A DNA stretch of 64,000 bases, taken from NCBI RefSeq assembly GCF_026210795.1, contig NC_089433.1, forward strand, positions 372,001 through 436,000, read 5' to 3'. Source of the DNA: Rhizophagus irregularis (Eukaryota). Every line of letters starts with the position of its first letter. Position 1 is the first letter of the stretch. This document shows, one piece after another, positions 4,362 to 63,144 of this stretch. The position numbers and the translations under genes are program-made. The notes under the pieces were generated by a model that saw only the letters and a program-made list of their open reading frames with translations, was not told where the DNA came from and searched no databases.

Positions 4362-6482
4362 TTACTGTACATACCGAATAAACAATTCATTTTCAATATC
4401 TTTAATTGGATATGATACATTAATTTCACCATCATTTTCTTGATATGATTTATACCATTTTAATGCTTCTATTTTATTTTTTTGAGTACCTTCACCATTT
4501 TTATAACATTCGGCTAATTCATATTGAGATGGTATAAATCCATTTTCAGCAGATTTTTTAAATAATTCGAATGCTATAATTGAATTATTTTGTGCATTAT
4601 AATTGAATTGATGATAACAAGATGCAAGAAAATGTAAAGCTATATTTAATCCATTATTAACAGCATGTTGACAAAATTCCAATGATCTTTCATTATAATT
4701 TTTTTCAACGGTATAACCAAGATAATAATAAAATCCAACCTCATAATATCCATTGAAATCATTTTGTTGACTTGATCTCATATACCATTCGAATGCTATA
4801 TTTATACTTTTATTTACTCCAAAACCTCTATTATAAAAGACTCCTAACATTAATTCATAATATTGTAAAGTAGGATTATTTATAAGGTAATTAAAAATTT
4901 CTTTTGATCTTGATTCATATCTTTCTAATACTTTATTAAAATCAAAAGTTTTTATCCATCCAATCTTATTTCTTTTTAAATAATTTTGAATAATTTCTTC
5001 TAAATCATCTCTTAAACCTTTTTCATATTCACTAATACTAGATGATATCATTGATGGTGTACCTAAATATATAATAAAATATTAATAAGAATTTAATCAA
5101 ATACTGTATGATTGATTGAATGATTGAATGATTGAATGATTGATTTTACTTACTAATTTGACTAGTAAATTGCGCTAAATTCAGTTCGTTAATATTATCA
5201 TCAATTGTTAAGTATGATCGTGATTGTAAATTATTTTCATTATTCAATATATTAGAACTATTAGAATTTGTTTCATCACTATAAATATTTATTTTAATAT
5301 CAACCGTAGAATTATCTTTAGAAAAACGTTTCAATGTATCGTAAACTTCTTCAGCATTCGGTCTTAAATCTGGATCATTATCCCAACATTTCTGATAAAG
5401 TTCAACATATTCTAATGGTGTATCATTCATTGGTGATTCTCTATATCCATTTGCAATCCTATAACATAAAGTAGCTCTTGAAATACTTGGAAAAGGAGGA
5501 TACCCGCTTGTTATTTCCCATAAAAGAATTCCTAAACTATAAATATCAGATCTTTTGTCTCTTACATAATTATCAACAACATAACATTGCGGTTCAATAT
5601 ATTCTAACATCCCCCAAGCTATTGAATTTGATGTAATTTCACCCGTTAAATGTTTAGATAACCCAAGGTCCGCAATCATCAAATTATTATTATCAACTAA
5701 TATATTCTTTGCATGCTATAAAAAAAAAAATAAATAAATAATTTTAGATATGAATTAAAAAATATTAAAAAAATTTTATTAACAGTTGAGGATAAATAAA
5801 TTTATTACCAAATCTCTATGAATAATTTTTCTAGAATGTAAACATTTCAATCCACAAGTAATTTCTGATGCCATCCGAATTTTATCATCCCAATTAAGTG
5901 ACTTAAAATTATTTTTTAAATATTCTCTTAAATTTCCACGATTAGCGTATTGTAACACCATTATATAATTATTTGTTATTGGTTCTAGTATATTATAAAG
6001 ATAAAAATAAAATAAATTAATATGTTATTTAATACATTTGAAGTGGTTACAGAAATGTCAAAAATAATCCAACCTTTTGTAATTCCTAAAAATCGATTTA
6101 TGTTCGGATGGAAATTAACTTTTCTTAAATTTCTTAACTAAGTTAACGTACGTTAATGGATTATTTATTTTGAACAATAATAATGAAATCGTCAATATAA
6201 TAAATCATGATGATGAGAATAAATCTTATTATAATAAATCTTGAATATGAACAATATATACTGTACCTCTTTAAGAAATCTATTCATATTATCTTGATTG
6301 ACTGAATTATATTCGATAATTTTTAATGCTATTTTAATACCACAACTTTTCCAATCAGCTTTATTCACAATTCCGAACGCTCCTTCGCCAACTTTTTCAA
6401 AATTACTAAATTCATCATAATCAAAATAATTTATGTCATCATCCCTTATTTTCATATCGATCCACTCGCATAATGAAGTCAT
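4362..6482 (-). CDS. TKL-like protein kinase fused to C-terminal Sel1-like repeats (5 exons: 6482-6267, 6137-6074, 5984-5809, 5715-5154, 5062-4362)
   Basis: Spliced GT-AG model keeps frame: GEGAFG, IALK, IHRDL|HAKN, DLG, YIEPQ, SDIYSLG, CW..DP..RP, then Sel1 motifs (AFEWY..S, SQYELAECYKNGEGT.KN..EALKWY). Confidence 0.9.
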
Positions 6483-15194: not shown

Positions 15195-17957
15195 TTAATA
15201 GGTATTAAATGTATTTACCAACTCATTTTGACTTGTCGTGTATTTTTTTTCCCATTTTGAAGCTTCATCCCTATTTTTTTGAGTACCTATACCATCTTTA
15301 TAACATTCAGCTAATTCACGTTGTGATAGTACAAATCCATTTTCAGCAGATTTTTTGTACAATTCAAATGCTTTAACTTGATGTTCTCGCAATAATTGCT
15401 GATTGGTCTCATTCATTTTTCGAATACCATCACCAGATTTGTAACAAGTTGCAAGAGAATATAAAGCTCTATTTAACTTTTCCTTACTCTCATTAACAGC
15501 ACGCTGAAAAAATTCAAATGCTTTGTCACAGTTCTTCACAACACCATTTCCATTATAATAACAATTTCCAGTCTCTAAGATGCCATTATAATTATTTTGT
15601 TTACTTGCATCTATATACCATTTAAAAGCTTTATCCATGTTTTCATTTGTTCCAAACCCCATTTCATGAAATTTTCCAACAATTACTTCATAATTCCGTA
15701 TAGTTTGATTATTATTAAGGCATTTAAAAATTTCTTGTGATTTTGACTCATAATTCTTTAAAACTTTAAAGAAGGAAAAACTTTTTGTTTCTCCAATGCT
15801 ATTATGTTTTAAATAAGCTTCAATAATTTCATCTAATTCATTACGTGTGATTTCTCTTTCAATGTCATTAATGAGAGATTTAATAGATAACGTAGTTTTT
15901 TCCTATTAAATTAAATATAATTTAAGTCAATTACTTTATTTTTTTTTTAAAAAAAAAAGAGTGAAAACAAAGGAAATTATATTTACCATTATGGTATCCT
16001 TGATATTATATGTTGGATTATACTCGCCATTATTTTCTAAAAACAGTTTGTACCATTTTAAGGCTTCTGTTTTATTCTGTTGTGTACCTTTACCTATTTC
16101 ATAAAATGTGGCTAATTTATATTGAGATGGTATAAATCCTTTTTCGGCAGATTTCTTATATAATTTGAACGCCTCATCAAATCTATTTTTTTCATTATCA
16201 AATTCATAACTAATTGCAAGAAAATATGTAGCTATATTTAACCCTTCATCAGAAGCAAGTTTATATGATTTTAACGCTTCTTTAAGATTTTTTTTAATGC
16301 TATATCCATAATTATAACAGTATCCAAGTTCAAATTGACCATTCAAATTATTTAATTTACTTGCCTTTTTATACCACTCAAAAGCAACAATTTCATTTTT
16401 ATATACACCAAATCCATCTTCATAAAAATATCCAACCATTACTTCATATTGTCGTATAGTTTGATTATTGATAAGATTACCAAAAATTTTATTTGATATC
16501 GATTTGTGCTTTTCTAAAATTTTTGGAAAAGAAAAATCTCTTGACCATCCAATATTATTTCTTTTTAAATAAGAATCAATGATTTCGTCTGTAGCATTAA
16601 TTATATTTTCTCTCTCATCCTCGTAAATTTTGGGCGTCAAAAATGAGGGTGATTCACCTAATGATATATAAATATTAGTAATATATTTTCAATGTTTTTT
16701 TTTAAAAAAAATAAATAAATATAACAAATATACTTACCTAATGGATTTTCAAGATATGATAATTTAAGATTGTTTTGGTCATATAAAATTTGACTATTTT
16801 TATCACTGTTATTTTTTTTAATCACATCTTCCATAATTTTAGGAAGATTATTATATTGATCCTCCAATATATTAAAAACTTCAATAACAGTTGGTCTTAA
16901 TTTTGGGTCATCATCCCAGCATCTCTGGTAGAGATTAACGTAAACTTTAGGTGTATTAATTATTGGTTCTTCTCTATATCCATTGGCAATTTTAAAAGTT
17001 AAAGCGGTATCCTTATGAGGTGAATTCTTAGAAAATGGAGGATATCCACTCGTTATTTCCCATAAGAGAACACCCAAACTATAGATATCAGACTTTAAAT
17101 CTCTGACATAATCACCATATTTATAACATTGTGGTTCGACATATGCCGGCATTCCATAAACTACCGAATTTGACGAACCATCGATGGTTAATTCCTTTGC
17201 TAATCCAAGATCCGCAATCATTAAAGTACCATTGTGGACCAGTATATTTTTTGCGTGCTATAAAAATAGAACAAAAATAATTTAATTTAAAACGTGAAAA
17301 TAATATGAAATAAATAAATTAGTATATATTACCAGATCTCTATGAATAATCTTTGTGGAGTGTAAGTACTTCAATCCACAAGCAATTTCTGATGCCATCC
17401 GAATTTTATCACTCCATTGGAGCGGCTTAAAATTGATTTTTAAATATTCTCTTAAATTTCCTTGATTCGCATATTGTAAGACCATTACATAATTGTTTGA
17501 TGTCGGATCTAAAAAAGATTTAGTTAATATCAGAACAAGATAACAGAAACTAACGAAAATTATATTTACCCCTTGTTATTCCATAAAATTGATTTATATT
17601 TGGATGAAAGCCAACTTTTCTTAAGATCTTTAACTATTTTTTTTTTTTTTTAAAAAAAAAATAATATAAGTTGTTTTTATTATTAAAACTTATTATAATG
17701 TAATATTAAAAAATTACCTCCTTAATAAATTTTTCCATATTACTTTTCACATTATTTTCATTATTTATTTCACTAATTGCTTTATTATTTGTAAGTATCT
17801 TTAACGCTATCTTAATTTTACCACTATTCCAATCAGCTCTGTTCACAATTCCGAACGCTCCTTCGCCAACTTTTTCCAAATTAATGAATTCATCATATCT
17901 AAAAAAATTTATATCTTCTTCTTCTATTTTCTTGTCAATCCATTCACTCGACGTCAT
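15195..17957 (-). CDS. TKL-like protein kinase with two tandem Sel1-repeat modules (6 exons: 17957-17718, 17633-17570, 17508-17333, 17257-16738, 16657-15987, 15902-15195)
   Basis: Same motifs and same first intron positions as the 4362-6482 gene (GEGAFG, IALK, IHRDL|HAKN, DLG, YVEPQ); two Sel1-bearing exons follow. Confidence 0.9.
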
Positions 17958-19849: not shown

Positions 19850-20305
19850 TCGAAATATTGGTTTGAAAATTTTTATTGTCGGGATCGTCAGGTACTCGGG
19901 TTATTCGGCTAGTCGGGTTATTAGAAAAGATAACACGGGTATACTTTACAGCTGATTTCATGAGACCTGGGACAAAATAAATTTTTGAACCCAACCGCCG
20001 ACCCGCCGATCCGGTTCAGTTGTTATTTATTTTACAAATCAAACTATCAAATCTGGATCACGTACCCAACTAAAAATACCAGATCGGCGGGTCGGCGGTC
20101 GGGTTTTAAAATTTATTTTGTCCCAGGTCTCATGAAATCAGCTGTAAAGCCTGTAATATAACATAATTACATTTATATAGTACATACAATTATAAATTAT
20201 ACTACGCCATCATATATATATATGTCAGTGTTATATATCTTTTTTAATAACCCGACTACCGACAATCCCGACAATAAAAATTTTCAAGTGTCCACTATAT
20301 TTCGA
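19850..20305. mobile_element. Nested inverted-repeat elements (outer MITE ~19850-20305; inner MITE ~19945-20148)
   Basis: Inner ~70-bp TIRs tttacagctgatttcatgagacctgggacaaaataaattt... match ...aaatttattttgtcccaggtctcatgaaatcagctgtaaa; outer TIRs gaaaatttttattgtcgggat match atcccgacaataaaaattttc. Confidence 0.75.
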
Positions 20306-20313
20306 ATTGTAAC

Positions 20314-20570
20314 CTAAAGTGCCTGGCCCGGCCCGCGAACTATTATTATTATAAAAACAAAAAAATGGGCCAACTTAATTTTGGCCAGTTTAATTTCGGC
20401 CAGAATTAAGACGGTTTGGCCAGAATTACGAAAATCCGGGTTTAACGAAAAATCATGTGCCGGCCCGGACCCAACCCGGGTGAATTTTGAAGTAAGTTTT
20501 CCAGTCCAAACCCGGATCCGAGTCCGGACCGGGTCCGGGCCAGGTCCAGGTCCCGTTTGCATACCTCTAA
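20314..20570. mobile_element. GC-rich MITE-like element
   Basis: Dense ccgg/ggccc/gacccg motifs in AT-rich context; right end cccgtttgcatacctcta reads TAGAGGTATGCAAACGGG on the minus strand, resembling a hAT-type end; left TIR not clear. Confidence 0.5.
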
Positions 20571-20904: not shown

Positions 20905-23900
20905 ATGTTTTCTCAGAATATACTTTTGACAAGAAATAATATTCTGAAATATTTAGAAACCAATTTTACAAATTGGACCAGTGGTAACGAAAAAATCAAT
21001 AATTTTATTCAAAAAAGGCAATTAGGAATTATTGTCAATGATGCTGATGTGGTGCTTGAATGGATACCATACAATCAGTTTAACGAAATTAAAGAGATAG
21101 GCGGAAATGGCCTTATAACAGTATATTCAGCAATATGGAAGGATGGTCCATTATATGAGAAAATTGATATGTGGAGTGAAAGTTATACAAGAGATTCAAA
21201 TAAAGAAGTTGCTTTAAAATATTATCATAATTCGCAAGAATCCATTGATTATTTAATAAATGAGGTATGAAATGTCTTTAAATATTTAAATTTTTTTTTT
21301 TTATTAATTAATATATTTACAGTTTCTTTTATTTAGGCTAAAAAATATCCAGCAAAATATGAATCATTTCAAGTATTACATGGAATATCTCAAAATCCAG
21401 ATACAAATGATTATATTTTAGTTCTAAATATTTCCATAAACGTAACAAATTGGATAAGTGGAGATGAAAAAATTGATGATTACATTCTGGAAAGGCAATT
21501 AAAAATTAATAACTATGATGATATAGTGCTTGAATGGGTACCATACAATCAGTTTAATGAAATTAAAATGATAGGCAAAAATGGTCTTATAACGGTATAT
21601 TCAGCAATATGGAAGGATGGTCCATTATACAAAGAGGATATATGGAGTAATTACATAAAAGATTCAAATAAAAAAGTTGCTTTAAGATGTTTACATAATT
21701 CACAAACATCCATTGTTTCTTTAATAAATGAGGTATAAAATTTCTTTAATATTTATAATATATATTTTTGGTGATGATCACCGGTGACTGAAATTATGAC
21801 AATCGACCAGCATTAAAAAAATATAGTGCCGGTAAAATTGATAATTCCGGCCAACGGTGATGATCACCCCTAAAAAAATTATTTTGAATTAGTATATTTA
21901 CATTTACAATTCCTTTTTATTTATGTTTAGGCTAAAAAATATCCAACCAAATATAGGGCATTTCAAGTATTGTATGGTATATCTCAAAATCCTGATACAA
22001 ATGATTATATTTTTGTTCAAAATAATTATACATGGAAAAGTGGAAATGAAAAAATTGATAATTTCATTCAAGAAAGGCAATTAAAAATTAATAACTATGA
22101 TGATATAATGTTTGAATGGATACCATACAGTCAGTTTAATGAAATTAAAGAAACAGGCAAAAATGGTCTTATAACAGTATATTCAGCAATATGGAAGGAT
22201 GGTCCATTATGTTTTAATAAACAATATGAAAATTATACAAGAGATTCAAATATAAAAGTTACTTTAAAATGTTTATATAATTCACAAGAATCCATTGATT
22301 CTTTAATAAATGAGGTATGAAAATTCTTTAAATGATTAATATTTTTTTTAATTAGTATGCTTACAATCTCTTTTATTTATATTTAGTCTAAAAAATATCA
22401 AATTAAACATAAAACTTTTCAAGTATTATATGGAATATCTCAAAATCCTATTACAAATGATTATATTTTTGTTCAAAATAATTATACATGGATAAATGGA
22501 AATGAAAAAATTGATGATTTTATTCAAGAAAGGCAATTAAAAATTAATAATGATAATGATCTAATTTTTGAATGGATACCATACAGTCAGTTTAATGAAA
22601 TTAAAGAAACAGGTAAAAATGGTCTTATAACAGTATATTCAGCAATATGGAAGGATGGTCCATTATACAAAGAGGATATATGGAGTAATTACATAAGAGA
22701 TTCAAATAAAGAAGTTGCTTTAAAATATTTACATAATTCACAAGAATCTATCGATTCTTTGATTAATGAGGTATGAAATTTCTTTAATGCTTAAATATTT
22801 TTTTTAAAATTACTTATATACAATCTCTTTTATTTATATTTAGGCTAAAAAGTATCCAATAAAATATAAATTATTTCAAGTATTATATGGAATATCCCAA
22901 AATCCTGATACAGGAAATTATATTTTAGTTCTTACATGGGCAAGTGGAAATGAAAAAATAGATGATTTTATTCGAAAAATGCAATTAAAAATAAACAATA
23001 ATGATAATTTAATTCTTGAATGGGTACCATATAGTCAGTTTAATGAAATTAAAGAAATAGGTAAAAATGATCTTATAACAGTATATTTAGCAATATGGAA
23101 GGATGGTCCATTAAATTGCAGTAAGTTGCATCATAAATATGCAAGAGAATCAAATAAAGGAGTTGCTTTAATATGTTTACATAATTCACAAAAATCCATT
23201 GATTATTTGATTAATGAGGTATGTAATTTCTTTAAATGTTTAAATAATTTTTAATTAATATATTTACAATCTCTTTTAATTACATTTAGGCTAAAAAGTA
23301 TCCAACAAGACATAAAGCATTTCAAGTATTGTATGGAATATCTCAAAATCCTGATACAGGAGATTATATTTTTATTCAAAATAATTATATATGGACAAGT
23401 GGTAATGAAAAAATTGATAATTTTATTCGAGAAAAGCAGTTAAAAACTAATAATAACAATGATTTAGTATTTGAATGGATTCCATACAGTCAGTTTAATG
23501 AAATTAAAAAAACAGGTAAAAATGACCAAATAACAGTATATTCAGCAATATGGAAAGATGGTCCATTATGTAAAAAGAGTATATGGAGTAATAATTATTC
23601 TAGAGATTCAAGTAAAGAAGTCGCTTTAAAATGTTTATATAATTCACAAGAACCCATTGATTCTTTGATTAATGAGGTATGAAATTCTTAGACATTTAAT
23701 ATTTTTTTTAATTAATATATTTACAATCTTATTTGATTATATTTAGGTTGAAAAATATCTAATAAAACGTAATGCATTTCAAGTATTGTATGGAATATCT
23801 CAAAACCCTAATACAAAAGATTATATTCTTGTTCTTATATGGGCAAGTGGAAATGAAATAATTGATGATTTCATTCAAGAAAGTCAATTAAAAATTAATA

Positions 23901-26900
23901 ACTATAATGATATAGTATTTGAATGGATACCATACAATCAGTTTAATGAAATTAAAGAGACATGTAAAAATGGCTTTATAACGGTATATTCAGCAATATG
24001 GAAGAATGGTCCATTATGCAAGATGGATAGATTAAGTAATAATTATACTAGAGATTCAAATAAAGAAGTTGCTTTAAAATATTTGCAAAATTTACAAGAA
24101 TCTGTTGATTCTTTAATAAATGAGGTATGAGATTTCTTTGAATATTTAAATACTTTTTTTTAATTAGTATATTTACAATCTCTTTCATTTTAATATATTT
24201 AGGCTAAAAAATATCCAACAAAACATAATGCACTACAAGTATTGTACGGAATATCTCAAAATCCTGATACAGAAGATTATATTTTAGTTCTTATCTGGAC
24301 AAGTGGAAATGGAAAAATTGATGATTTTATTCAAGAAAGGCAATTAAAAACTAAAAATTATTATGATATAGTGCTTGAATGGATACCATACAACCAGTTT
24401 AATGAAATTAAAGAAACAGGCAAAAATAGTCTTATTACAGTATATTCAGCAATATGGAAGGATGGTCCAAAATACAAAAATAATAGATGGAGTAATTACA
24501 TGAGAGATTCAAATAAAAAAGTTGCCTTAAAATGCTTGCATAATTCACAAGAATCCATTGATTCTTTAATAAATGAGGTATGAAATTTCTTAAATACTTT
24601 TTTTAATTAATATATATATATTTACAAGCTCTTTTATTTATATTTAGGCTAAAAAATATCCAACAACACATATAGCATTTCAAGTATTGTATGGAATATC
24701 TCAAAATTCTAATACAGGAGATTATATTTTGGTTCTTATATGGACAAGTGGAAATGAAAAAATTGATGATTTCATTCAAGAAAGGCAATTAAAAACTAAA
24801 AATTATAGCGATATAGTAATTGAATGGATACCATACAATCAGTTTAATGAAATTGAAGAAACAGGCAAAAATGGCCTTATAACAGTATATTCAGCAATAT
24901 GGAAGGATGGTCCAAAATACAAAAAGGATAGATGGAGTAATTATATGAGAGATTCAAATAAAAAAGTTGCTTTGAATGTTTATATAATTCACAAAAATCT
25001 ATTGATTCTTTAATAAATGAAGTATGAAATTTTTTTAAATATTTAAATACTTCTTTAATTATATATTTACAATTTCTTTTATCTACATTTAGACCGAAAA
25101 ATACCTAATAAAACATAATGCATTGCAAGCATTATATGGAATATCTCAAAATCCTGATACAGGAAATTATATTTTAGTTCTTATTTGGACGAGTGGAAGT
25201 GAAAAAATTGATGATTTCATTCAAGAAAGGCAATTAAAAGTTTATAATGATAATGATATAGTGTTTGAATGGATACCATACAATCAGTTTAATGAAATTG
25301 AAGAAACAGGCAAAAATGGTTGTATAACAGTATATTCAGCAATATGGAAGGATGGTCCATTTCATTATAATAATTGGACAAAAAAATATGATAAATTTGA
25401 AAGTAATTCAAATAAAAAAGTTGCTTTAAAATATTTATATAATTCAAAAGAATTCATTGATGTTTTAATAAATGAGGTATTAAACTTCTTTAAATATTTA
25501 AATACTCCTTTTATTAATTAATATATTTACAATCTTCTTTATTTATAATTAGGCTAAAAAATATCCAACAAAACATAATGCATTTCAAGCATTGTATGGA
25601 ATATCTCAAAATTTAGTTACAGGAAATTATATTTTGGTTCAAAAAGATTTTATAAACTTTGCAAATTGGACGAGTAAAAATGAAAAAATTGATGATTTCA
25701 TTCAAGAAAGGCAATTAAAAGTTAATAATTATAATGATATAGTGTTTGAATGGATACCATACAATCAGTTTAATGAAGTTGAAGAGACAGGCAAAAATAG
25801 TCTTATAACAGTATATTCAGCAATATGGAAGGATGGTCCATATTGGCATGATGATGAAAATTATACTAGAATTTCAAATAAAAAAGTTGCTTTAAAATGC
25901 TTACATAATTCACAAGAATCCATTGATTCTTTCATAAATGAGGTATAAATTTCTTTAAATACTTAAATATTTTTTAATTAGTGTATTTACAGTCTCTTTA
26001 TTTATATTTAGGCTAAAAAATATCCAACAAAATATAATGAACTACAAGCATTGTATGGAATATCTCAAAATCCTGATACAGGAGATTATATTTTAATTCT
26101 TATCTGGACAAGTGGAAATGGAAAAATTGATGATTTCATTCTAGAAAGTCAATTAAATATTAATGATTATAATAATATGGTGCTTGAATGGATACCATAT
26201 AATCAGTTTAATGAAATTGAAGAAATAGGCAAAAATGGTCTTACAATAGCATATTCAGCAATATGGAAGGATGGTCCATTATACAAAGAGGATATATGGA
26301 GTAATTACATAAGAGATTCAAATAAAGAAGTTGCTTTAAAATATTTACATAATTCACAAGAATCTGTTGATTCTTTAATAAATGAGGTATGAAATTTCTT
26401 TAAATATTTAAATACCTTTTTTTAATTAATATTTACAATCTCTTTTATTTATATTTATTTAGACTAAAAAATATCTAACAAAATATAAAGCATTTCAAAT
26501 ATTAAATGGAATATCTCAAAATCCTGATACAGGAGATTATATTTTTGTTCAAAATAATTATATATGGACAAGTGGAAATAAAAAAATTGATGATCTGATT
26601 TATGAAATGCAATTGAAAATGAATGATCATAGTGATGTAGTATTTGAATGGATACCATATAATCAATTTAATAATATTAAGAAAATAGGAAATGGTGGCT
26701 TTGCTATAGTATATTCTGCAAATTGGAAAAACGGTCCATTAGAATATTATACAAATAAAAGTATATACAAAAGGAATCCAAATATAATGGTTGCCTTAAA
26801 ATGTTTGCATAATTCACAAAATATTAGCAACAAATTTTTAAATGAGGTATTATTTTTTTTAAAAATCATTTATAATAAAAAAATTCTTATTTAAACATAA

Positions 26901-27799
26901 TGAAATAATTATTTCTTTATTTATATATTTAATAGGTTAAAAAATACTCTATAAATAAAAGGAGTAATATTCTTAATGTATATGGGATATCTCAAAATCC
27001 AGATTCAAAAGAGTATATTATGGTTCTCCAATATGCAAAGGAGGGCAATTTTAATCATTGGATAAATAAAAACTATAAATATTTTATTTGGAGGGATAAA
27101 CTATCTGCACTGCTTAATATTATTAATGGTCTTAAAGAAATTCATCAAAAAAGTATAGTTCATCGTGATTTTCATACAGGAAATATATTATTTTTAAGTA
27201 ATATATATAATTTTGGTAATTGTATATCAGTTTCAGATATGGGATTATGCGGAGAAGTTGGTAATATGGATGAAACTAAAATATATGGAGTTATGCCTTA
27301 TGTGGCTCCTGAAGTATTAAGAAAAAAGCTTTATACCCAGGAATCAGATATTTATAGTTTTGGTATGATAATGTATTTTGTAGCAACTGGAAGACAACCT
27401 TTTTATGACCGTGCACATGATCATCAACTTGCATTGGATATTTGTAAAGGAGTTAGACCTGAAATATGTGAACCAGAAGCACCAAGATGTTATATTGATT
27501 TAATGAATAAGTGTTGGGATTTAAATCCAAATAATAGACCAAATGTTCTTGAAGTAAATGAATTAATTGTGTCATTTCATAAGTCATATGGAAGGGATTT
27601 TTACATAATAGAAAATGAAGAAATTGAAATGCAATTCAAGAAAGCAGAAGAATATAGAAAAGCAAATCTTTCATTTATTAAAAATTACCAAATAGCTACT
27701 CATCCACAAGCTATTTACACATCTCGATTACTTAATTCATTTACAGGAGATCTTTCAGAATATGATGATAATTCTCAATGTTTAGATCAAGCAATCTAA
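20905..27799 (+). CDS. Giant TKL-like kinase preceded by 12 tandem degenerate kinase N-lobe modules; 14 exons (~20905-21264, 21337-21732, 21931-22314, 22387-22770, 22844-23218, 23290-23676, 23747-24124, 24203-24577, 24648-25021 [frameshifted], 25093-25476, 25553-25942, 26012-26386, 26463-26846, 26936-27799)
   Basis: Every exon but the last ends ...aatga(g/a)|gtat and every exon but the first starts after ..tag. Exons 2-13 have lengths divisible by 3 except exon 9 (374 nt). The last module has GNGGFAIVY and VALK, and the last exon has HRDFHTGN, DMG, VAPE, SDIYSFG. About 1810 aa if exon 9 is skipped. True start codon uncertain. Confidence 0.85.
21770..21872. mobile_element. ~100-bp MITE inserted in intron 2 of the repeat kinase
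   Basis: ggtgatgatcacc at both ends; this intron is ~200 bp versus ~70 bp for its sisters; a reverse-complement copy lies at ~63054-63144. Confidence 0.8.
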
Positions 27800-36820: not shown

Positions 36821-38274
36821 TTAATTTATCTGTGGAACGTGTACAAACTTATCTGCTTTTGATAGTTTTCTTTTCCTATAAAAGTATATAAGAACTGAAG
36901 ACCCTACCAAGGCAAGCACGATTGATGAAATTATAATTCCTATAATAACATTTTTGTTTTGAGTACTAGGTTTCGGATTAGGATCAAACTCACTGACCCA
37001 CTTGTAATTAGATTTATCGCTCGTGTCTAAAATAAACGTTTCGTTTGATAATTGAGTATTATCTCTTCCAAAAAGCACGATCATATGATCACCAACCAAA
37101 GTAGCCGTATGGTAACAACGTGGAAGTGGTGGATCTGTGGCACTTATGACATTCGCTTTTGACCATGTATAAACAGTTTGTGATGTATCTAATATCACAA
37201 GATCATCATTAACGGCAGCAATATCAGCATCACAGCCTCCATACACGATAATACGACCATCTTGAGCTATATAATTTAGAGAACAATGTAATATATTACC
37301 CATTTTATAATTTAATTCACAAAAAAAAGATTAAATATATAATTACTCAGAACAGCAGAATGGCATGCACGACGTGCAGGCGAATAACCAGTGGTAGTCT
37401 GAAATATAATATATCTTATAAGAAAATGAACGATTAGCTTTTAAAAAAATTAAAAGAAACACCTTACCATTGAAGTCCATTTATTATCATATGTATTATA
37501 CAAAGGTAACTATTTTTTTTTAAAAAAAACAATGATCAGTAAATATACAATTTAGACTCTCAATTAATCAATTAAACGGTGCTGATTTACCTTTAACATA
37601 TCTGCTAGTGAATTTACGCCGTTATCATGTATGGTACCACCTATATAAACAATATTACCGTTTCTTAACAAAGTACCCGTATGATCGAACCTTTGTTCTG
37701 GAGCATTAACTATTTCCCACACTAGCGTCGATGCATCCAAAATATCCAAATTATAATTATATTTGTTTTCTGGTGAGGAAGGTAACATTCCACCAAATCT
37801 ATACATTTTTCTAGTTTTAACATCACAAACGGTCTGGGTCTGGCTGTGAAAATTAGATAGAGGTGGATTGGTGGTCGCAATGCTGTTCCATTGTTTTGAA
37901 CTTATCCCATAAATGTAGACGAAGTTTGCTATAAATGTATTGTTTTCTCCAATATACAAAATTAGAGAATCATCAAGTCCACAATTTGAGAACGCGCTCC
38001 ATGCATGATCTGGAAGACCTTGCGAACTAAGTTCCTTCCAAGGTAATGGTTCTCCTACTTTAATTACAATGGGTTGCTTAACGTCTAAATAATAAAATTC
38101 ATTGGAAAATGTTAATCCATCAAAATTATTCGGGTTTTTGGGTTGGAGACCACCTGTAATATATATTTTAGAATCTGTAAATACGGCGCTGGGACCCCAA
38201 ACTGTCTTAGGCGTGAAAGCCAAAGTGAACTCATTGAGGTACAGGCAAATAACGATCAAGCCGAGGAAAAGCAT
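36821..38274 (-). CDS. Type I membrane Kelch/galactose-oxidase-like beta-propeller protein (4 exons: 38274-37591, 37509-37468, 37398-37347, 37266-36821)
   Basis: Signal peptide MLFLGLIVICLYLNEFTLA; Kelch motifs KIYITGG, MYRFGG, RFDHTGTL..IVYIGG, RACHSAV..IIVYGG, RCYHTATL; C-terminal TM helix followed by RKRK. Confidence 0.9.
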
Positions 38275-39363
38275 TATCAATAATCATAAGGGAGGCGAAA
38301 AATACACCTGGCATTTTTTTAGTTCGTCTAAATACCGAAAATAAATGAATTCTAGTATAGAAAATGTCATGATCTATTACGTAATGTATCCTTTCTTCTA
38401 CAGCCTATTGCTAATTATGATAATATCCTTGCACTACAAATTCTAGTATTTCCATATATGGCATGATTGCCAAGCATTACGAAAATAATCTAAATAATAA
38501 AATAATAAAATAATAAAAATACTTTGATTAAAAAAAGTATAAACATATATAGGATAGAAAAGGATTTTCGGAATGGGAATTCCGGACATAGCCACAATTT
38601 ATATTCGGCTAGGAAAACGGAAACCGCTCAAGCCTTTCGCGTTGCATAACTCACAGTTACGTGTCATTTATTTATTTGACATATGACATATTTCAGGGGT
38701 CAAATAGGTAGTGTTACGTAAATCGTGATACATATTCAAAAAAAGAAAATAGAATTGTCGATTGTGACAGGGACAAAAACGGGGGGTTAAACCAAAATTT
38801 TGCTAGTTCTGTACAGTAAATAGTCCTTCGCTAACGCTTGATGATTAGGCGTTCAGTTGTGTTACGGATATCGGCAAAATTTTTCCGTTTTAACATAACT
38901 TATTCAATTTATCCTTTTTTAAACTTATCTTCAATTTTTGGTGATTTCATATACGATGAACATGTTTATAGAAATTTTCAAAACTGAATTGAGTTTTTTG
39001 AGTTTAAACTATCATACAAATAGTACGAAGTAACTTAGTGGCACCTATTAGTACAATTAAAGAATTATTTGGCGATGTACAAATCAAATCGCTCACTTTC
39101 GTGCTAACAATAACTTGTTCCATAATATCGTCGACACGTTTCTTCATTTATTCAGGAACCGACTAGAATATTTTTTTGGAAATTACCCTGAACTCTAACT
39201 ATGATTAACATTGCACTTTACATGTCATGTATCGTGTCGTATCCATCGAATACTTATTAATTTCTTCGCTTTGGAAAGCAACAAAAATAAATATATTCTG
39301 GTTATAAAAACAGCTCAACTAAGAGACCGTGACCCTAAGGTCACAGTTGGCTTATTTCATCAT

Positions 39364-44606: not shown

Positions 44607-46063
44607 TTACTTTACTTTATAACGTGGTACCTTTTTAATTTCAAATTTCTTAAATTTAATATCTAATTTCATATATTTTTCAATAAGTATTTTTATATCA
44701 TTCATATTTTTAATGTAATAAATATCGTCAGGAATATAAATAATCAGTGAAAGTGATCTTTGTGATACACGATCTTGCCAGTTTATAAAAAATTCCTCTA
44801 AATCTTTTAAATCTTCATAAAGGCTATCCATCGACCATACCGGCCATGCAAAAGAATAATCTAAAATTAAGCCATAAAAATATTCTTGTGAATAATTTGC
44901 CAAAATGTTGTAGAAGTTAAAGACATAATTACAAGCAAAAGGATATTCAATAATTTCTAAATATTGACAATTACTTAGAATTAGTTTCAATGTTTCTTCT
45001 TCTTCCTTCTTAATTTGAATGCGTAAAATTTTAAGATTTGGACAAAATTCAGCTAAAACTAAATTTAATGATCTATTATAGTAATGATATATATAAAACT
45101 CTGTTAGATTTTTTCCATTAATTTCCAAAAAGTTAATTAGCATTTCAACATCAGAAAAATTATTTTTATATATAATCTTCAGAATCTTCAATTGTGAAAA
45201 ATAAGTATCCTGCAATTGATAAAATATATGATTAGCACTACATTCTTGATATAAAATGAGTTCTTGTAAATTTTTGAACATAGCTATAAATGGAAAGGAT
45301 ATTTTACAATTCTTTAATGTTAACTTTGTTAATGTTAAAGAATGCTTAGTTAATGAACAGATGAAAAAATATTGAAGATTTGCAATTTTAAAATTATTCT
45401 GTGAAAAAATCAAATCCAATAATCCATTTGAAATCTCAGACTTAAAATTTATAGTTAATGATTGCAGATTATGAGATACTTGAGAAATAAATTCAGAAAA
45501 AATATCTGAATCACATTTAAATTCTACAAGGTTAGCTAAATGAAAATGAATTATTGCTAAAGATAATACATCAATATCTTTTGATTGTGATTGTGATTGT
45601 GATTGTGATTCGTTACACTTCAAAACTTTTAATGATGAAATTTGATTCATAATCATTTTTAATTTGTAATAACAAATTTCGTATGTCTTCTGAAATAATT
45701 GATTGTTGATTTTTAAGTGCAAGTATAATCATGTCATCAATTTTATAAACTGAGATAACTTTGCAAAATGATGCATAATTAATCAATGGAGGTTTCTGAA
45801 TTGGAATGGTTATATTAAATCCATTCTATGTAAAATTTTTCTGATTCCTTAGGAAGACAAGCAATTAAAGTATTAATAATTGATAATGATATATATGGCT
45901 TTTCACCAAAATCATAAAACTTCCAAACATTTCTCCATAAAATTCTAACTGCAACTTCACAACAAAGATGGTTAACTAATAGACATGAATATAAGGTAAT
46001 TTTATCATCATATAAATATTCAAATATATAATTAAGGCAATCAGTAGTTAGTTGACGAGGCAT
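44607..46063 (-). pseudogene. F-box / RNI-like leucine-rich repeat gene with frameshifts
   Basis: F-box-like MPRQLTTDCLNYIFEYL..LYSCLLVN.LCC...V.ILW; the KPPLINYASF segment is in a different frame; LRR-like ORF 45722-44607 (FCPNLK.L); at least two frame breaks near 45830 and 45660. Confidence 0.8.
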
Positions 46064-57300: not shown

Positions 57301-57397
57301 TATTTTAAATGAAAAAAAAGTATATAATCACAAATGGACGATATAAAAAAAATAATTTCTTTGGTAATAAATTTATATATTTATAAACGACTACCAA

Positions 57398-60300
57398 ATG
57401 AATGAAGTAATCGAAATCAAAATTAACAATGATGCTGACAAAATCGAAGTTGATGATGTTGATAAAATAAATTTTGCTAAAATCGATGTTGATGAAAATG
57501 ATGTTGACAAAATATTTAACTTCGATGGTGAACAACATAATGGTAAACCTATTACTATGTTAGAAATATCACCAAATGAAAAATACCTTATTACTTATAG
57601 TGAAGAAGATCGTTCAATTGTCGGTTGGAATGTTGAAGATATAGATAAGGTTCAACTTAAATTTCATCAAGCTGTTAAAACTAAAGAAACGAAATATGGA
57701 ATCAAAAGTTTATGCGTTTCTGATGATAAGAAACTAGCTTATATTACTGGTAGTAAACATAGTGAAGATAATACTATTGGTAAGTAAAAATTATTTGATT
57801 ATGTAATTATTAAATTATGGCAATTTATATTTATTTTAATATTTTTTTAGTAATCGATATGAATAATAAAGATAAAAAAATTGCATTAAGTTTTGATGAA
57901 TTTGGTTCTGCAAAGTATTGTACCTTTAATTTAAAAGGTGAATTTATTTTACATAGTGTAAAGTATACTAATGAAAATGCTGTTTCTGAAATACAAAGAA
58001 TTATTAAAAAACATAAAATTATTTGGATTTATTCCACACAAACTAAAAATAACAAATTGGAATGTAAGAGATTTTACAGGATACCTGAAGATTATAAATT
58101 AATTAGTATATCAAAATATGATAAAGTTTACCTGTTTTCAAATGATTACATTTATGAATGGAATATTAATACTGAAAGAGGTGTAAAAATATTTGGTAAT
58201 AATAATAAGGATAAGAATAAGGTAATAAATATTACAAAATTTATTTTCCAATCAATATTAAATTATAATTAAATATATAAATACTAATTATTTTTTAGTT
58301 TGAAACAAAAAACATCGGAATATTCAGTAATGATGAAAATTTTATTTTTCTAAAAATCAATGATAAAATTGTCATTTATTCAATTGAATTGAAAATTCCT
58401 ATTGCTTCTTTGGATATAAATGATGGTAACCATTTTTAAAAAATTTTATTTATACTTTAATTATTACTCATATTAAATTATTCTTTTTTATTTAGATATT
58501 CAATTATATAATTTTATGAATCATACTGGTTTATTTCTTTTACCTTCTTTATTCTATTATACCCAAGATAAAGAAATCAAACATTGCTGGAACAATAAAT
58601 ACAAAACTAGGTTTAATTACACTTTATTTGATAAATCAATTGATAAACCGACTGATGAACCAACTGATGAACCAACTGATGAACCAACTGATGAATCAAC
58701 TGATGATCAAACAAAGTTTGTGTTTGGATTTCGATCTAAATTTGACGAAAAGATGTCAAAAATGAACTTTTTATCCGAAAATTCTGATGAATTAAACAAA
58801 GAAAATAATAAAATTGTTGAATGTGATGAATACTTAAATGTTCATTCATTTAATCTATATACGGTTAATGTGGATACATTAATTCATTCAGGTGATTTTT
58901 TTGGAATTAAATTAACTGGAAATTTAATTGAATGGGATGTACGTATTGGTGACGGTAAAATTAAACTGGAAGTTTTCAAAAAAGGAAAATTAATTAGCAC
59001 GAGAATTGAAAATTTTTATTATCCTATTAAATTTTTTATTACTTTCGACAATGATCATAAATTACTTGAGAGCTCATTATTTAATAATGATGATATTGTT
59101 ATATTGACAACATTTGGTATTCTTATTTATACTTTTAGTGAAAATAACAAATCTAGTGAAAAAGACCAATCTTGTTTTTATAACAAATATGGTGAAAAGG
59201 ACAAATCTATTTTTTTAAACTATTTTTATCGTTGGAAAGATAATAAAATATATTACCCAGAATCTACTTTACCATTACCAAATCATGATAGTTTTAGATT
59301 AGATGGATGGGTTTTAGATGTGATAAATAATAAGTCAAGTCTTTTGAAATATGGTGTTGAATTATTAAAATTTGCAATTAAAGAACATAAGTTAGAATTA
59401 ATTGATGATATTTATAAAAAATGTATGACTTATTTTAAAGAGGATTTAATGAACAATAAGTCATTTTTAAGCATTATAACTTCTGCAATGCCATTACTAG
59501 ATGAATATTATCCAGAATATATTCTAAAATATTCATCAGAAACGAATATGATCATAGATTCTTCTTTTTACAGTATAGAGCATCAAAATAAAAATTTCCA
59601 TCTTTATTCTTTTTTTCAATCTCCTCAAATGGCTAATTTATCAAAATCTCTTTTATGGACAAAATACCATTATAAATTATATCATTGTAATCCAATAATA
59701 ATACTTATATTGTTTATTATACAAGCTTTAATAATACTTTTAACTTTACCCCTATATTTGGCTACATTTTATATTTTATTAAAATACGATTTTATTAATA
59801 GTATTTACATTTTTGATATATTTTCTCTTATTTATTTCTATACTAAACGTAAAATTTTTAAAATTTTTAAAAAATATATAACAACGACACCAACAATTAC
59901 TTTTATGATTCCTTATATTAATTTTGTTAATTATTCAAGTGATTATAAGTGGTTTTTAGAATTAATTAAACCTCAACCTAGTCCATTTACTGAAACAATA
60001 AATAGAAATATTTATAAAACATGGAATGGAGAAGCATTAATTAATTTTAAATGGAATGTTTATGGAAAATATTATTATGCAATGATTTGGATTTTATTTA
60101 TGGCTTTGCTTGGATGCTTTACTACTGCTGCAACAATTTCTCAGCAATATATTAATGAAGAAGTTAGACAACAACTTTTTATTGCTTCGATTATACTTGG
60201 ATTTATTCATCTGATTTTAGAAATTCGTCAATTTTTTTATAATATTACTAAGTGGTTCTATAATTTTTGGAATATTTTTGGTAAATATAAATGTTTAATT

Positions 60301-61645
60301 TATTTTACAATATTTTAAGAAAATAAAATTAATTATATAATATTTTAATATTGTAGATATAATTGCTTATGTCCTTTCAATTTACACTTCTATTTATTGG
60401 CTTCAAACAAATGATAAGAACAATAATATGTATCTAATTCAATTGCTTTCTTTTTCATGCTTATTTTTGGATATAAAATTTTTGTTATTTTTTAGAGCAT
60501 TTGAATATTTTGGTGTATATTTTGCAATAATTATTAGTGTTGGAAAAAAGATTTTTTCTTTTTTATTAGTCTTATTCATTATTATAATAAGTTTTGCACA
60601 TGCATTTTATATTTTATTATCACCAAAATCTAAATTTTCACTTGATCAATATAATACAAATAGTAATGATGATCCAAATAATCCTTGGAATTTAGCTCCT
60701 AGTTATAGTCAAGTTGATAATAATGGAAATATAAATTCCAATCCACTTATGATGATTCAAATTCCTGATGGAAATACAAACATGTTTATAGATATTAAAA
60801 CTTCCCTTTTTGCTATATATTTATTTTTAATAGGTATATTTAAATTTTTCATAATTATGTAAATATACATAAATATTTTCTAATATTTTTAAGCAATTCT
60901 TCTTATCAATAGGTGATTCAAGTGCATTATCCAATTGGACGTATACAGAAAATCCATCAATTTCAGTATTGATTGTTTTGTTTTCCCTTTTAGTTGTTGT
61001 ATATCTTATGAACTTGTTAATTGGATTACTCAATATAGCAATTGAAGAAGATAATAATAGAGTCTCATATTTGATGCAAAAGGCAGAGGTAAATAATATT
61101 ATCATTAATCATTCCATTTCTGTAAATATACTAATATATCTCGATTTTATTTTTAAAGATTTTGGCTGAGATTGAGTTATTTTACCTATTACCACATCAG
61201 AAACGTTGGCATACATGGTTTCCTGAAGTAATGTATGTAATTTTACTTTTAAAAAAACTTTGTTATGGTCTTATTAATTATTCGAATTTGTTTTTTAAGA
61301 CATTATTATGCCGATGTTGATAAAGCTCGAGTAGAAATTAAAAGATTGATTAAAGAGGGTGAATGGGATACTAAGGAATTCACAGAGTTGCGGAAAAATT
61401 TATTCGAAGTACTTCAAATTGAATATAATTCTATTGACAATGAGGCAATATTGGAGCAATTAAAAATTGACAATGAGGTAATATTGGAGAAATTAAAATC
61501 TCATGAGAAATTATTGAAAGAAAATAATAATGAGTTGGAGAAATTAAAATCTCATGATGAAAAATTAGATAAATTAGATAAATTAGATAAATTAGATAAA
61601 TTAGAGGAATTAGAGAAATTATTGAAAGAAATACGCGCAAAATAA
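57398..61645 (+). CDS. TRP-like ion channel (8 exons: 57398-57779, 57851-58221, 58299-58425, 58496-60280, 60357-60833, 60913-61088, 61159-61232, 61300-61645)
   Basis: In-frame splicing; WD-like N-terminus; EALINFKW pre-S1; S4-like FLLFFRAFEYFG; S5 SFAHAFYILL; S6 YLMNLLIGLLN; TRP-box-like QKAEILAEIELF; coiled-coil tail. Confidence 0.88.
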
Positions 61646-63050: not shown

Positions 63051-63053
63051 GTT

Positions 63054-63144
63054 GTGATCATCACCGTTGGCCGGAATTATCAATTTTTACCGGCACTATA
63101 TTTTTTTAATGCTGGTCGATCGTCATAATTTCAGTCACCGGTGA
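63054..63144 (-). mobile_element. Second copy of the kinase-intron MITE
   Basis: gtgatcatcaccgttggccggaattatcaatttttaccggcactata...tcagtcaccggtga is the reverse complement of ~21777-21867. Confidence 0.85.

What the first reader, a model, noticed from the sequence alone, without database searches (positions are those of the whole stretch)
21150..26790. CDR-like hypervariable loop in every module
Seen: flanks are almost invariant (YSAIWKDGP ... SNK.VALK), but the segment between differs in sequence and length: LYEKIDMWSESYTR, LYKEDIWSNYIK, LCFNKQYENYTR, LYKEDIWSNYIR, LNCSKLHHKYAR, LCKKSIWSNNYSR, LCKMDRLSNNYTR, KYKNNRWSNYMR, KYKKDRWSNYMR, FHYNNWTKKYDKF, YWHDDENYTR, LYKEDIWSNYIR. All indels are in frame, and by eye the loop looks more diverged than the neighbouring introns. 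Inference: the beta2-beta3 hairpin, rich in aromatic and charged residues, is a specificity surface under diversifying selection, as in non-self-recognition receptors.
Basis: partly seen in the sequence, partly recalled or inferred. Interest (0 to 1): 0.82.

Follow-up and report, generated by a model that had tools for sequence, protein, structure and literature searches.

The report
Swappable loops in fungal half-kinase array
A kinase gene of a root-symbiotic fungus carries twelve tandem copies of only the front half of a kinase, each with its own variable hairpin loop that is copied between repeats as a block; the array likely works as a multi-partner sensor, but the loops show no robust sign of antibody-like positive selection.

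Summary
The loops are real and read correctly. They lie in a 14-exon Rhizophagus irregularis tyrosine-kinase-like gene (20905-27799, +): twelve exon-encoded repeats of a kinase N-lobe without C-lobe, then a complete kinase. In the models each loop is an extra beta2-beta3 hairpin. Loops differ far more between repeats (nucleotide p 0.38) than framework (0.14) or introns (0.17-0.20). Diversifying selection is not robust: omega is 1.8-3.9 only if synonymous rate and tree are tied to the framework. The loop rejects that tree (AU p=5e-6), and on its own tree omega is 0.3-0.6 with 2-3 times the synonymous divergence. Repeats 4 and 12 share a 115-nt identical tract across the loop in 15%-diverged exons. 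Between strains loops vary no more than framework at single sites. Best reading: old, conserved loop variants held in a scaffold homogenised by gene conversion and swapped as cassettes. Binding is untested, and catalytic N-lobes of the family are equally variable there. This copy has a 1-nt frameshift in exon 9; other strains are intact and spliced. The family has hundreds of Glomeraceae members; ten paper searches found no description of the arrays, and two look-ups found no earlier scan note on them.

The parts
20905..27799 (+). 14-exon tyrosine-kinase-like gene: 12 N-lobe-only repeats plus a complete kinase; 13 phase-0 GT-AG introns, all at the same place (after the alphaC Glu codon)
   Evidence: Exon parse; matches stored R. 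irregularis protein P0121; Pfam PF07714 on exon 14, E 3.8e-33
20905..26386 (+). Exons 1-12 (20905-21264, 21337-21732, 21931-22314, 22387-22770, 22844-23218, 23290-23676, 23747-24124, 24203-24577, 24648-25021, 25093-25476, 25553-25942, 26012-26386), one repeat per exon+intron unit, period about 456 bp
   Evidence: repeats fold as kinase N-lobes
21151..21192 (+). loop 1, LYEKIDMWSESYTR
21625..21660 (+). loop 2, LYKEDIWSNYIK (1 nt from loops 4 and 12)
22207..22242 (+). loop 3, LCFNKQYENYTR
22635..22749 (+). 115-nt tract of exon 4 identical to exon 12 (26251-26365); spans loop 4 (22663-22698)
   Evidence: window coordinates derived from its alignment columns
23111..23146 (+). loop 5, LNCSKLHHKYAR
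23566..23604 (+). loop 6, LCKKSIWSNNYSR
24014..24052 (+). loop 7, LCKMDRLSNNYTR
24470..24505 (+). loop 8, KYKNNRWSNYMR
24915..24950 (+). loop 9, KYKKDRWSNYMR
24970..24978 (+). 1-nt deletion in exon 9 at the beta3 Lys codon; frameshift, stop at codon 1135 on canonical splicing; a strain polymorphism
   Evidence: database gene models route around it; frame intact in P0015/P0018 and in contigs of runs X5 and X20
25360..25404 (+). loop 10, FHYNNWTKKYDKFES
25841..25870 (+). loop 11, YWHDDENYTR
26251..26365 (+). 115-nt tract of exon 12 identical to exon 4; spans loop 12 (26279-26314)
26463..27799 (+). Exons 13-14: thirteenth N-lobe with intact GNGGF glycine loop, VALK lysine and alphaC Glu; its own hairpin (26739-26774); C-lobe with HRDFHTGN, SDMG and APE
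   Evidence: sequence; Pfam; model
21770..21868 (.). 99-nt multi-copy insertion in intron 2, bounded by a 13-nt near-palindrome at each end
   Evidence: high contig depth over it

Best explanation
The gene encodes a kinase preceded by twelve catalytically dead half-kinase (N-lobe) repeats whose beta2-beta3 hairpins are old, distinct variants that gene conversion likely copies between repeats as cassettes, and the array likely acts as a multi-specificity binding or decoy module controlling the C-terminal kinase. Shown: the architecture; loss of the glycine loop in the repeats; much deeper divergence in the loop than in framework or introns; a loop genealogy that differs from the framework's; an identical tract across the loop in repeats 4 and 12; splicing in RNA-like runs. 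Predicted: the N-lobe fold and the protruding hairpin. Inferred: conversion and unequal crossover start or end in the near-invariant 5' flank (ITVYSAIWKDGP) and homogenise the scaffold, while selection keeps different loops in different repeats. This leaves a local peak of both synonymous and non-synonymous divergence rather than omega above 1. Untested: that the hairpins bind anything. The predicted protein has no obvious signal peptide or membrane span (read by eye), so partners would be intracellular, for example kinase-targeting proteins of endobacteria, viruses or fusing hyphae, or the fungus's own signalling proteins.
For: Loop data reject the framework tree (AU p=5e-6) and framework data reject the loop tree (p=0.001). 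Loop and framework distances are uncorrelated over 66 pairs (rho 0.09). Repeats 4 and 12 share 115 identical nt, not reached in 2000 column shuffles. On its own tree the loop has omega 0.31-0.51 and synonymous length 2.3-3.6 against 1.10-1.21 for the framework (all 12 repeats, 8 of 8 fits). Simulations with omega 1.5 and framework-level synonymous rate never gave such estimates (0 of 60). Between strains, loops carry 9 variable sites of 355 (one whole-loop replacement set aside) against 70 of 3076 in framework, ratio 1.11, versus 2.2-3.2 expected for a free loop (Poisson p 0.017-0.0001). Identical loops recur in dissimilar frameworks in 5 proteins (this one and four others) and in one pair of proteins (6 of 30 shared loops). 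The P0015/P0018 allele lacks one repeat, joined at the WKDGP flank. Theory for a peak of divergence under conversion: PMC3924837 (passages). Precedent for a partial kinase duplication that binds an effector: wheat RWT4 (10.1101/2024.04.30.591956, passages).
Against: Catalytic N-lobes of the family are just as variable in this loop (loop identity 0.40 at framework 0.75, 70 units; repeats 0.39 at 0.76, 229 units), so the variability is not special to the repeats. The synonymous excess rests on about 12 codons. Counted directly it is 48 against 30 expected among non-independent pairs, almost all at Tyr and Lys codons. The lower transition bias in the loop (kappa 2.1-3.1 against 5.5-6.2) could mean misalignment or saturation. 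In the seven well-alignable W-S-type loops the synonymous excess is slight (0.9-1.4 against 0.81-0.94). If the replaced loop is counted, strain variation is 18 of 355, ratio 2.2. This allele is frameshifted, so the intact array is dispensable in at least one strain. No ligand is known.
Confidence: 0.45

Rival explanations
1. Permissive loop that escapes homogenisation. The hairpin tip tolerates almost any sequence and in-frame indels. Once two loops differ by indels, conversion tracts stop at the loop edge, so loops drift apart while the scaffold is homogenised. The differences have no function.
For: Equal loop variability in catalytic N-lobes. Many identical tracts end at the loop's 5' edge. 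Omega about 1 with a free synonymous rate on the framework tree. A simulated omega of 0.82 with doubled synonymous rate was not excluded (5 of 60 reached the observed omega). Indels are known to end conversion (PMC3924837 passage).
Against: Point polymorphism between strains is not raised in loops (ratio 1.11). Omega point estimates are below 1 in 16 of 16 own-tree fits. Related loop types recur in other genes and in R. clarus (loop 3 scores 0.74-0.90 with loops elsewhere).
Confidence: 0.3
2. One reading: classical site-wise diversifying selection (omega above 1) on a non-self recognition surface, as in fungal HNWD repeats.
For: M8 versus M8a p=0.001 under MG-F3x4, omega 2.2, 5 of 6 high-posterior sites in the loop; nothing significant in the framework alone. 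Omega 1.75-3.85 when dS is tied to the framework. 142 of 162 loops are distinct within 27 multi-repeat proteins.
Against: p=0.08 under GY-F3x4. The single-tree assumption is rejected and the tied synonymous rate is rejected in 3 of 4 models (p 0.004-0.038; 0.076 in the fourth). Own-tree omega is 0.19-0.62. Loops are stable between strains.
Confidence: 0.15
3. The repeats are by-products of unequal crossover in a fast-turnover kinase family. They act at most as a spacer or autoinhibitory stack, and the loop differences were inherited from the diverse kinases that donated the units.
For: Repeat number varies widely (4-25 profile hits per protein, fragments included). Many hits have no detectable catalytic motif, and this allele is frameshifted.
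Against: Framework omega is 0.30-0.66. All loop indels keep frame. The beta3 Lys is kept in 216 of 229 repeats while the glycine loop is lost in nearly all. The architecture occurs in R. irregularis, R. clarus and Glomus cerebriforme. Transcripts are spliced.
Confidence: 0.1

Closest known systems
Expanded tyrosine-kinase-like (PF07714) kinases of Rhizophagus irregularis (PMC6123716, PMC8647823, PMC10234402: passages read)
   Same: Same species, same kinase domain, high copy number, transposon-rich surroundings; the gene is annotated only as 'kinase-like domain-containing protein'.
   Different: The passages read say nothing of N-lobe-only repeats, loop variation or conversion; Pfam has no match for the repeat.
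Wheat tandem kinase RWT4 with its partial kinase duplication KDup, and the beta-finger of Sr62TK and other kinase fusion proteins (10.1101/2024.04.30.591956 and 10.1101/2024.08.30.610287 passages; 10.1101/2025.07.14.664643 first third)
   Same: A non-catalytic copy of a kinase's front part placed before an active kinase, and a variable protruding N-lobe hairpin that contacts effectors.
   Different: One duplication rather than twelve. The plant finger extends the last two N-lobe strands (beta4-beta5), not beta2-beta3, and is reported as specific to grasses. Effector binding is shown there and not here. An analogue, not a homologue.
Podospora HNWD and other high-internal-conservation NLR repeats (PMC13449251, passages)
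   Same: Near-identical repeats under concerted evolution, repeat gain and loss between strains, repeat exchange, and a small variable surface.
   Different: WD40 repeats with a NACHT domain and four positively selected positions there; kinase N-lobes, no NTPase domain, a whole loop of variable length and no robust omega above 1 here.
Ectocarpus ROCO LRR and NB-ARC-TPR exon-shuffled candidate receptors (PMC3341825, abstract and outline)
   Same: One repeat per exon, shuffled repeats, a signalling domain at the end.
   Different: LRR or TPR repeats; whole exons shuffle there, whereas the tracts found here are sub-exonic and centred on the loop.

Membership tests
Tyrosine-kinase-like protein kinase (PF07714), C-terminal domain | Pfam match above the curated cut-off; glycine loop, beta3 Lys, alphaC Glu, HRD, DFG-like and APE motifs | tested here: met
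   115.3 bits against cut-off 23.1; GNGGF, VALK, FLNE, HRDFHTGN, SDMG, APE in exons 13-14; best solved relatives JAK, RIPK1, Roco4, TAK1
Tyrosine-kinase-like protein kinase (PF07714), C-terminal domain | Catalytic activity | not testable with these tools
   motifs only
Kinase N-lobe (each repeat) | beta1-beta2-beta3-alphaC-beta4-beta5 fold matching solved kinase N-lobes | tested here: met
   Models with mean pLDDT 84.7 and 83.4; all 50 listed VIA-align rows are kinase or pseudokinase chains, best Z 9.5, rmsd 2.4, 83 residues; 59% identity of exon 4 to exon 13
Plant tandem kinase / kinase fusion immune receptors | Extended beta-finger on strands beta4-beta5 | tested here: not met
   The extra hairpin is between beta2 and beta3 in the models; the plant finger is on the last two N-lobe strands
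Plant tandem kinase / kinase fusion immune receptors | Two or more complete kinase or pseudokinase domains | tested here: not met
   One C-lobe only
Plant tandem kinase / kinase fusion immune receptors | Direct effector binding that triggers defence | not testable with these tools
   no candidate ligand
Fungal NLR with high-internal-conservation repeats (HNWD-like) | NACHT or NB-ARC domain with WD40, TPR or ankyrin repeats | tested here: not met
   Pfam scan of exons 1, 4, 13 and 14 found only kinase families on exon 14; the other exons are copies of exon 4
Fungal NLR with high-internal-conservation repeats (HNWD-like) | Concerted evolution with repeat exchange and repeat-number polymorphism | tested here: met
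   allele with one repeat fewer, though an assembly collapse is not excluded
Fungal NLR with high-internal-conservation repeats (HNWD-like) | Positively selected hypervariable codons | tested here: inconclusive
   M8 significant under one of two frequency models; not supported once tree and dS are freed

The most novel reading that the evidence does not exclude
Glomeraceae fungi have built a receptor repertoire out of kinase N-lobes: hundreds of genes carry arrays of dead half-kinases, each presenting a different hairpin drawn from an old family-wide library and re-dealt by gene conversion at a conserved flank, so that one protein senses up to a dozen intracellular non-self or kinase-targeting ligands and signals through its single active kinase. 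This would be a repeat-sensor class independent of LRR, WD40, TPR and ankyrin, and would explain part of the unexplained kinase expansion in these fungi.
Probability: 0.25. Interest if true: 0.85.

Novelty: new variant of a known kind. Interest (0 to 1): 0.52.

Why it matters
R. irregularis has about 2,500 kinase genes (PMC10234402, passage) and their purpose is an open question. This finding gives a subfamily a concrete anatomy (an N-lobe array before one kinase), a defined variable element and a mechanism of exchange, which makes a sensor hypothesis directly testable by loop swaps and pull-downs. It also shows that a standard M8 test on such repeats can report positive selection that disappears when gene conversion is allowed for. 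As it stands the function is unproven and the kinase family itself is known, hence a middling score.

Tried and rejected
No whole genome is held for this window, so codon analyses rest on the 12 repeats of this one gene. The metagenome scan gave 1 related locus from 253 pattern matches (L001), too short to add. The ESM Atlas gave unnamed or kinase clusters, best score 0.90, Mucoromycota: nothing beyond the sequence searches. The search of 50% cluster representatives gave 594 hits at 1e-10 but no names, so range outside Rhizophagus and Glomus was not determined. The run search listed no holder on record as RNA; I used only the exact splice joints seen in contigs of X18 and X20. The framework fits were stuck at their starting value and were redone; one search failed on a faulty pattern and was redone. 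Column-shuffle hits involving exon 1 were discounted, because they likely reflect the conserved 5' flank. The frameshift as a one-off assembly error was rejected: gene models from separately deposited assemblies route around the same place and run X6 covers it without the extra base. No complex prediction was sent, as there is no candidate partner. Kwon et al. 2019 on pseudokinases, which I recall discusses R. irregularis expansions, is not held and could bear on novelty. No supplements were read; those of PMC6123716 and PMC8647823 list kinase genes and might describe domain layouts.
Full report
What the region is. The window is AT-rich and holds a 456-bp tandem array. Parsing GT-AG introns gives a 14-exon gene at 20905-27799 (+); all 13 introns are phase 0 and fall after the same Glu codon. 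Exon 14 matches PF07714 (E 3.8e-33); exons 1, 4 and 13 alone match no kinase family. A search with exon 4 among proteins of 225-2000 residues found 597 relatives among 719 candidates; all 120 listed come from Rhizophagus irregularis, R. clarus or Glomus cerebriforme. P0002 and P0121 are this gene, labelled R. irregularis DAOM 197198 by their sources. Each repeat is 59% identical to the N-lobe exon of the terminal kinase. Two AlphaFold2 models (three repeats plus kinase, pLDDT 84.7, pTM 0.69; three repeats alone, pLDDT 83.4, pTM 0.74) give every repeat a leading helix and the strands and helix of a kinase N-lobe, with an extra two-stranded hairpin between beta2 and beta3. All 50 listed structural matches of the repeats-only model are kinase or pseudokinase chains (best Z 9.5, rmsd 2.4, 83 residues), and Foldseek agrees. 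The repeats replace the GxGGF glycine loop with GKNGL-like sequence and have no C-lobe, so they cannot be catalytic (sequence plus established kinase biochemistry). Of 277 non-terminal units in 128 family proteins, 272 lack the glycine loop, while 216 of 229 zinc-finger-less repeats keep the beta3 Lys. More distant members carry a CxxC...WCxxC motif between repeats (P0113, P0085), which this subfamily has lost.

Observation. The 12 loops are as listed, 30-45 nt, in frame. Pairwise nucleotide distance is 0.38 in the loop, 0.14 in the framework and 0.17-0.20 in introns; by Nei-Gojobori counts the loop has pN 0.39 and pS 0.34, the framework pN 0.12 and pS 0.21. The 5' flank is near-invariant (0.041) but the 3' flank is not (0.133). 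Three database gene models route around it (P0002, P0121, P0122) and run X6 covers the site without the extra base, whereas P0015/P0018 and contigs of X5 and X20 have the frame intact. Contigs of X18 and X20, guessed to be RNA runs from two studies, join 25021 to 25093 at GT-AG, so this gene or a near-identical allele is transcribed and spliced as parsed.

Selection tests. I wrote codon models in Python (four frequency schemes; exon 1's non-homologous start masked; exon 13 left out). Framework omega is 0.30-0.66. With the framework's tree and synonymous rate imposed, loop omega is 1.75-3.85 (p at most 2e-4). With the loop's synonymous rate free it is 0.95-1.35 (not different from 1) and that rate is 1.8-2.8 times the framework's. 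M8 versus M8a, with fixed relative branch lengths and naive empirical Bayes, gives p=0.001 under MG-F3x4 (omega 2.2; 5 of 6 flagged sites in the loop) and p=0.08 under GY-F3x4; the framework alone gives p=0.36. The single tree these tests need does not exist: the loop rejects the framework tree (AU p=5e-6) and the reverse (p=0.001), and loop and framework distances are uncorrelated (rho 0.09, 66 pairs). On its own tree the loop has omega 0.19-0.59 with free branch lengths. Over four alignments, two models and two taxon sets it is 0.31-0.62 in 16 of 16 fits, with upper limits of 0.6-1.5; for all 12 repeats synonymous length is 2.3-3.6 against 1.10-1.21. Simulation without indels shows that omega 1.5 at framework synonymous rate would not give this (0 of 60), while omega 0.82 at doubled rate could (5 of 60). 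Cautions: the loop is about 12 codons; the direct synonymous excess is modest (48 against 30, non-independent pairs, nearly all Tyr and Lys); transition bias is lower in the loop, as saturation or misalignment would cause; and among the seven alignable W-S-type loops the synonymous excess is slight.

Exchange. Repeats 4 and 12 are 15% apart in framework yet share 115 identical nt across the loop; repeat 2 shares 62-64 nt with them; none of 2000 column shuffles reached the 4/12 or 2/4 runs. Repeats 3 and 4 have the closest frameworks (0.09) and loops 0.50 apart. Many other identical tracts end at the loop's 5' edge. In P0015/P0018 the start of repeat 2 runs into loop 3 at WKDGP, one repeat fewer; an assembly collapse is possible. 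In the family, 6 of 30 identically shared loops sit in frameworks under 85% identical, five within one protein and one between proteins; 142 of 162 loops are distinct within the 27 proteins with four or more repeats. Loop 3 resembles loops of other genes and of R. clarus (scores 0.74-0.90).

Controls at protein level. Against pure drift: in 12 allele groups assigned to different strains by accession prefix, 31 units were matched at 93% framework identity or more (four groups gave none, and one pair with no differences may be one strain). Loops had 18 variable sites of 355 and framework 70 of 3076. Nine of the 18 are the single loop replacement in P0015; without it the ratio is 1.11, below the 2.2-3.2 expected for a free loop (p 0.017-0.0001), and with it the ratio is 2.2 and that test is not significant. 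Mildly deleterious framework variants would weaken this test.

Mechanism. The pattern fits a peak of divergence kept against gene conversion, described as a signature of selection on duplicates (PMC3924837, passages); the same paper notes that indels alone can end conversion, which is the main rival. I therefore read the loops as old, individually conserved variants moved as cassettes, not as codons under fast positive selection. A binding role is an inference from anatomy and precedent: wheat RWT4 uses a partial kinase duplication to bind an effector (passages), and Sr62TK uses a variable N-lobe finger, though on beta4-beta5 (passages; first third of the preprint). Fungal HNWD repeats (passages) and Ectocarpus exon-encoded repeats (abstract and outline) are evolutionary analogues. 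The gene is a member of none of these families.

Novelty. The kinase expansion of R. irregularis is well known (passages; one search adds nothing on it). Ten library searches found no description of N-lobe-only arrays or of this loop; most subscription papers are not covered, and Kwon et al. 2019 could not be read. Look-ups in the scan's earlier findings gave no look-alike by sequence and one unrelated bacterial kinase note by words, which I did not use.

Noticed in passing
window 21770-21868: 99-nt insertion in intron 2 with the same 13-nt near-palindrome at both ends; very high contig depth suggests a small multi-copy mobile element. A further near match to the 13-mer lies at 63053-63065.
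   Followed up: partly
window 19863-20544: Nested inverted-repeat elements upstream of the gene: arms 19863-19889/20261-20287, 19944-20015/20078-20149 (72 nt, 94%), and a GC-rich one at about 20322-20544; MITE-like.
   Followed up: partly
window 4362-5715 (-) and 15195-17257 (-): Two kinase-Sel1 genes, another expanded family of these fungi.
   Followed up: no
window 36821-38283 (-): Kelch-repeat protein with a C-terminal hydrophobic segment.
   Followed up: no
window 57371-61645 (+): Long multi-exon gene with a weak Ion_trans match and a short DEPT tandem repeat; possibly a channel-like protein.
   Followed up: no
window 44607-45728 (-): 373-codon open frame with no Pfam match; leucine-rich-looking by eye.
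   Followed up: no
protein hits: 21 of the 120 listed relatives lie on one 4.92-Mb contig with locus tags OCT59_008295 to OCT59_008672, a large cluster of this family; this gene itself is OCT59_024656 on another contig.
   Followed up: no
P0024 versus P0228: An allele's loop gains the KTDN of another repeat's loop in the same gene, which looks like a partial conversion inside the loop.
   Followed up: partly
P0236, P0001: A 3470-residue family member and one with about 14 repeats of exactly 125 residues: very long or very recently amplified arrays.
   Followed up: no
L001:1-1016: Metagenome contig with the same exon-intron repeat unit, near-identical introns and two different loops.
   Followed up: partly
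exon alignment columns 1-15 and 56-65: Two further segments of the repeat (after alphaC, and before EWIPY) are moderately variable (pN about 0.20-0.24); whether they lie next to the hairpin in space was not testable.
   Followed up: no
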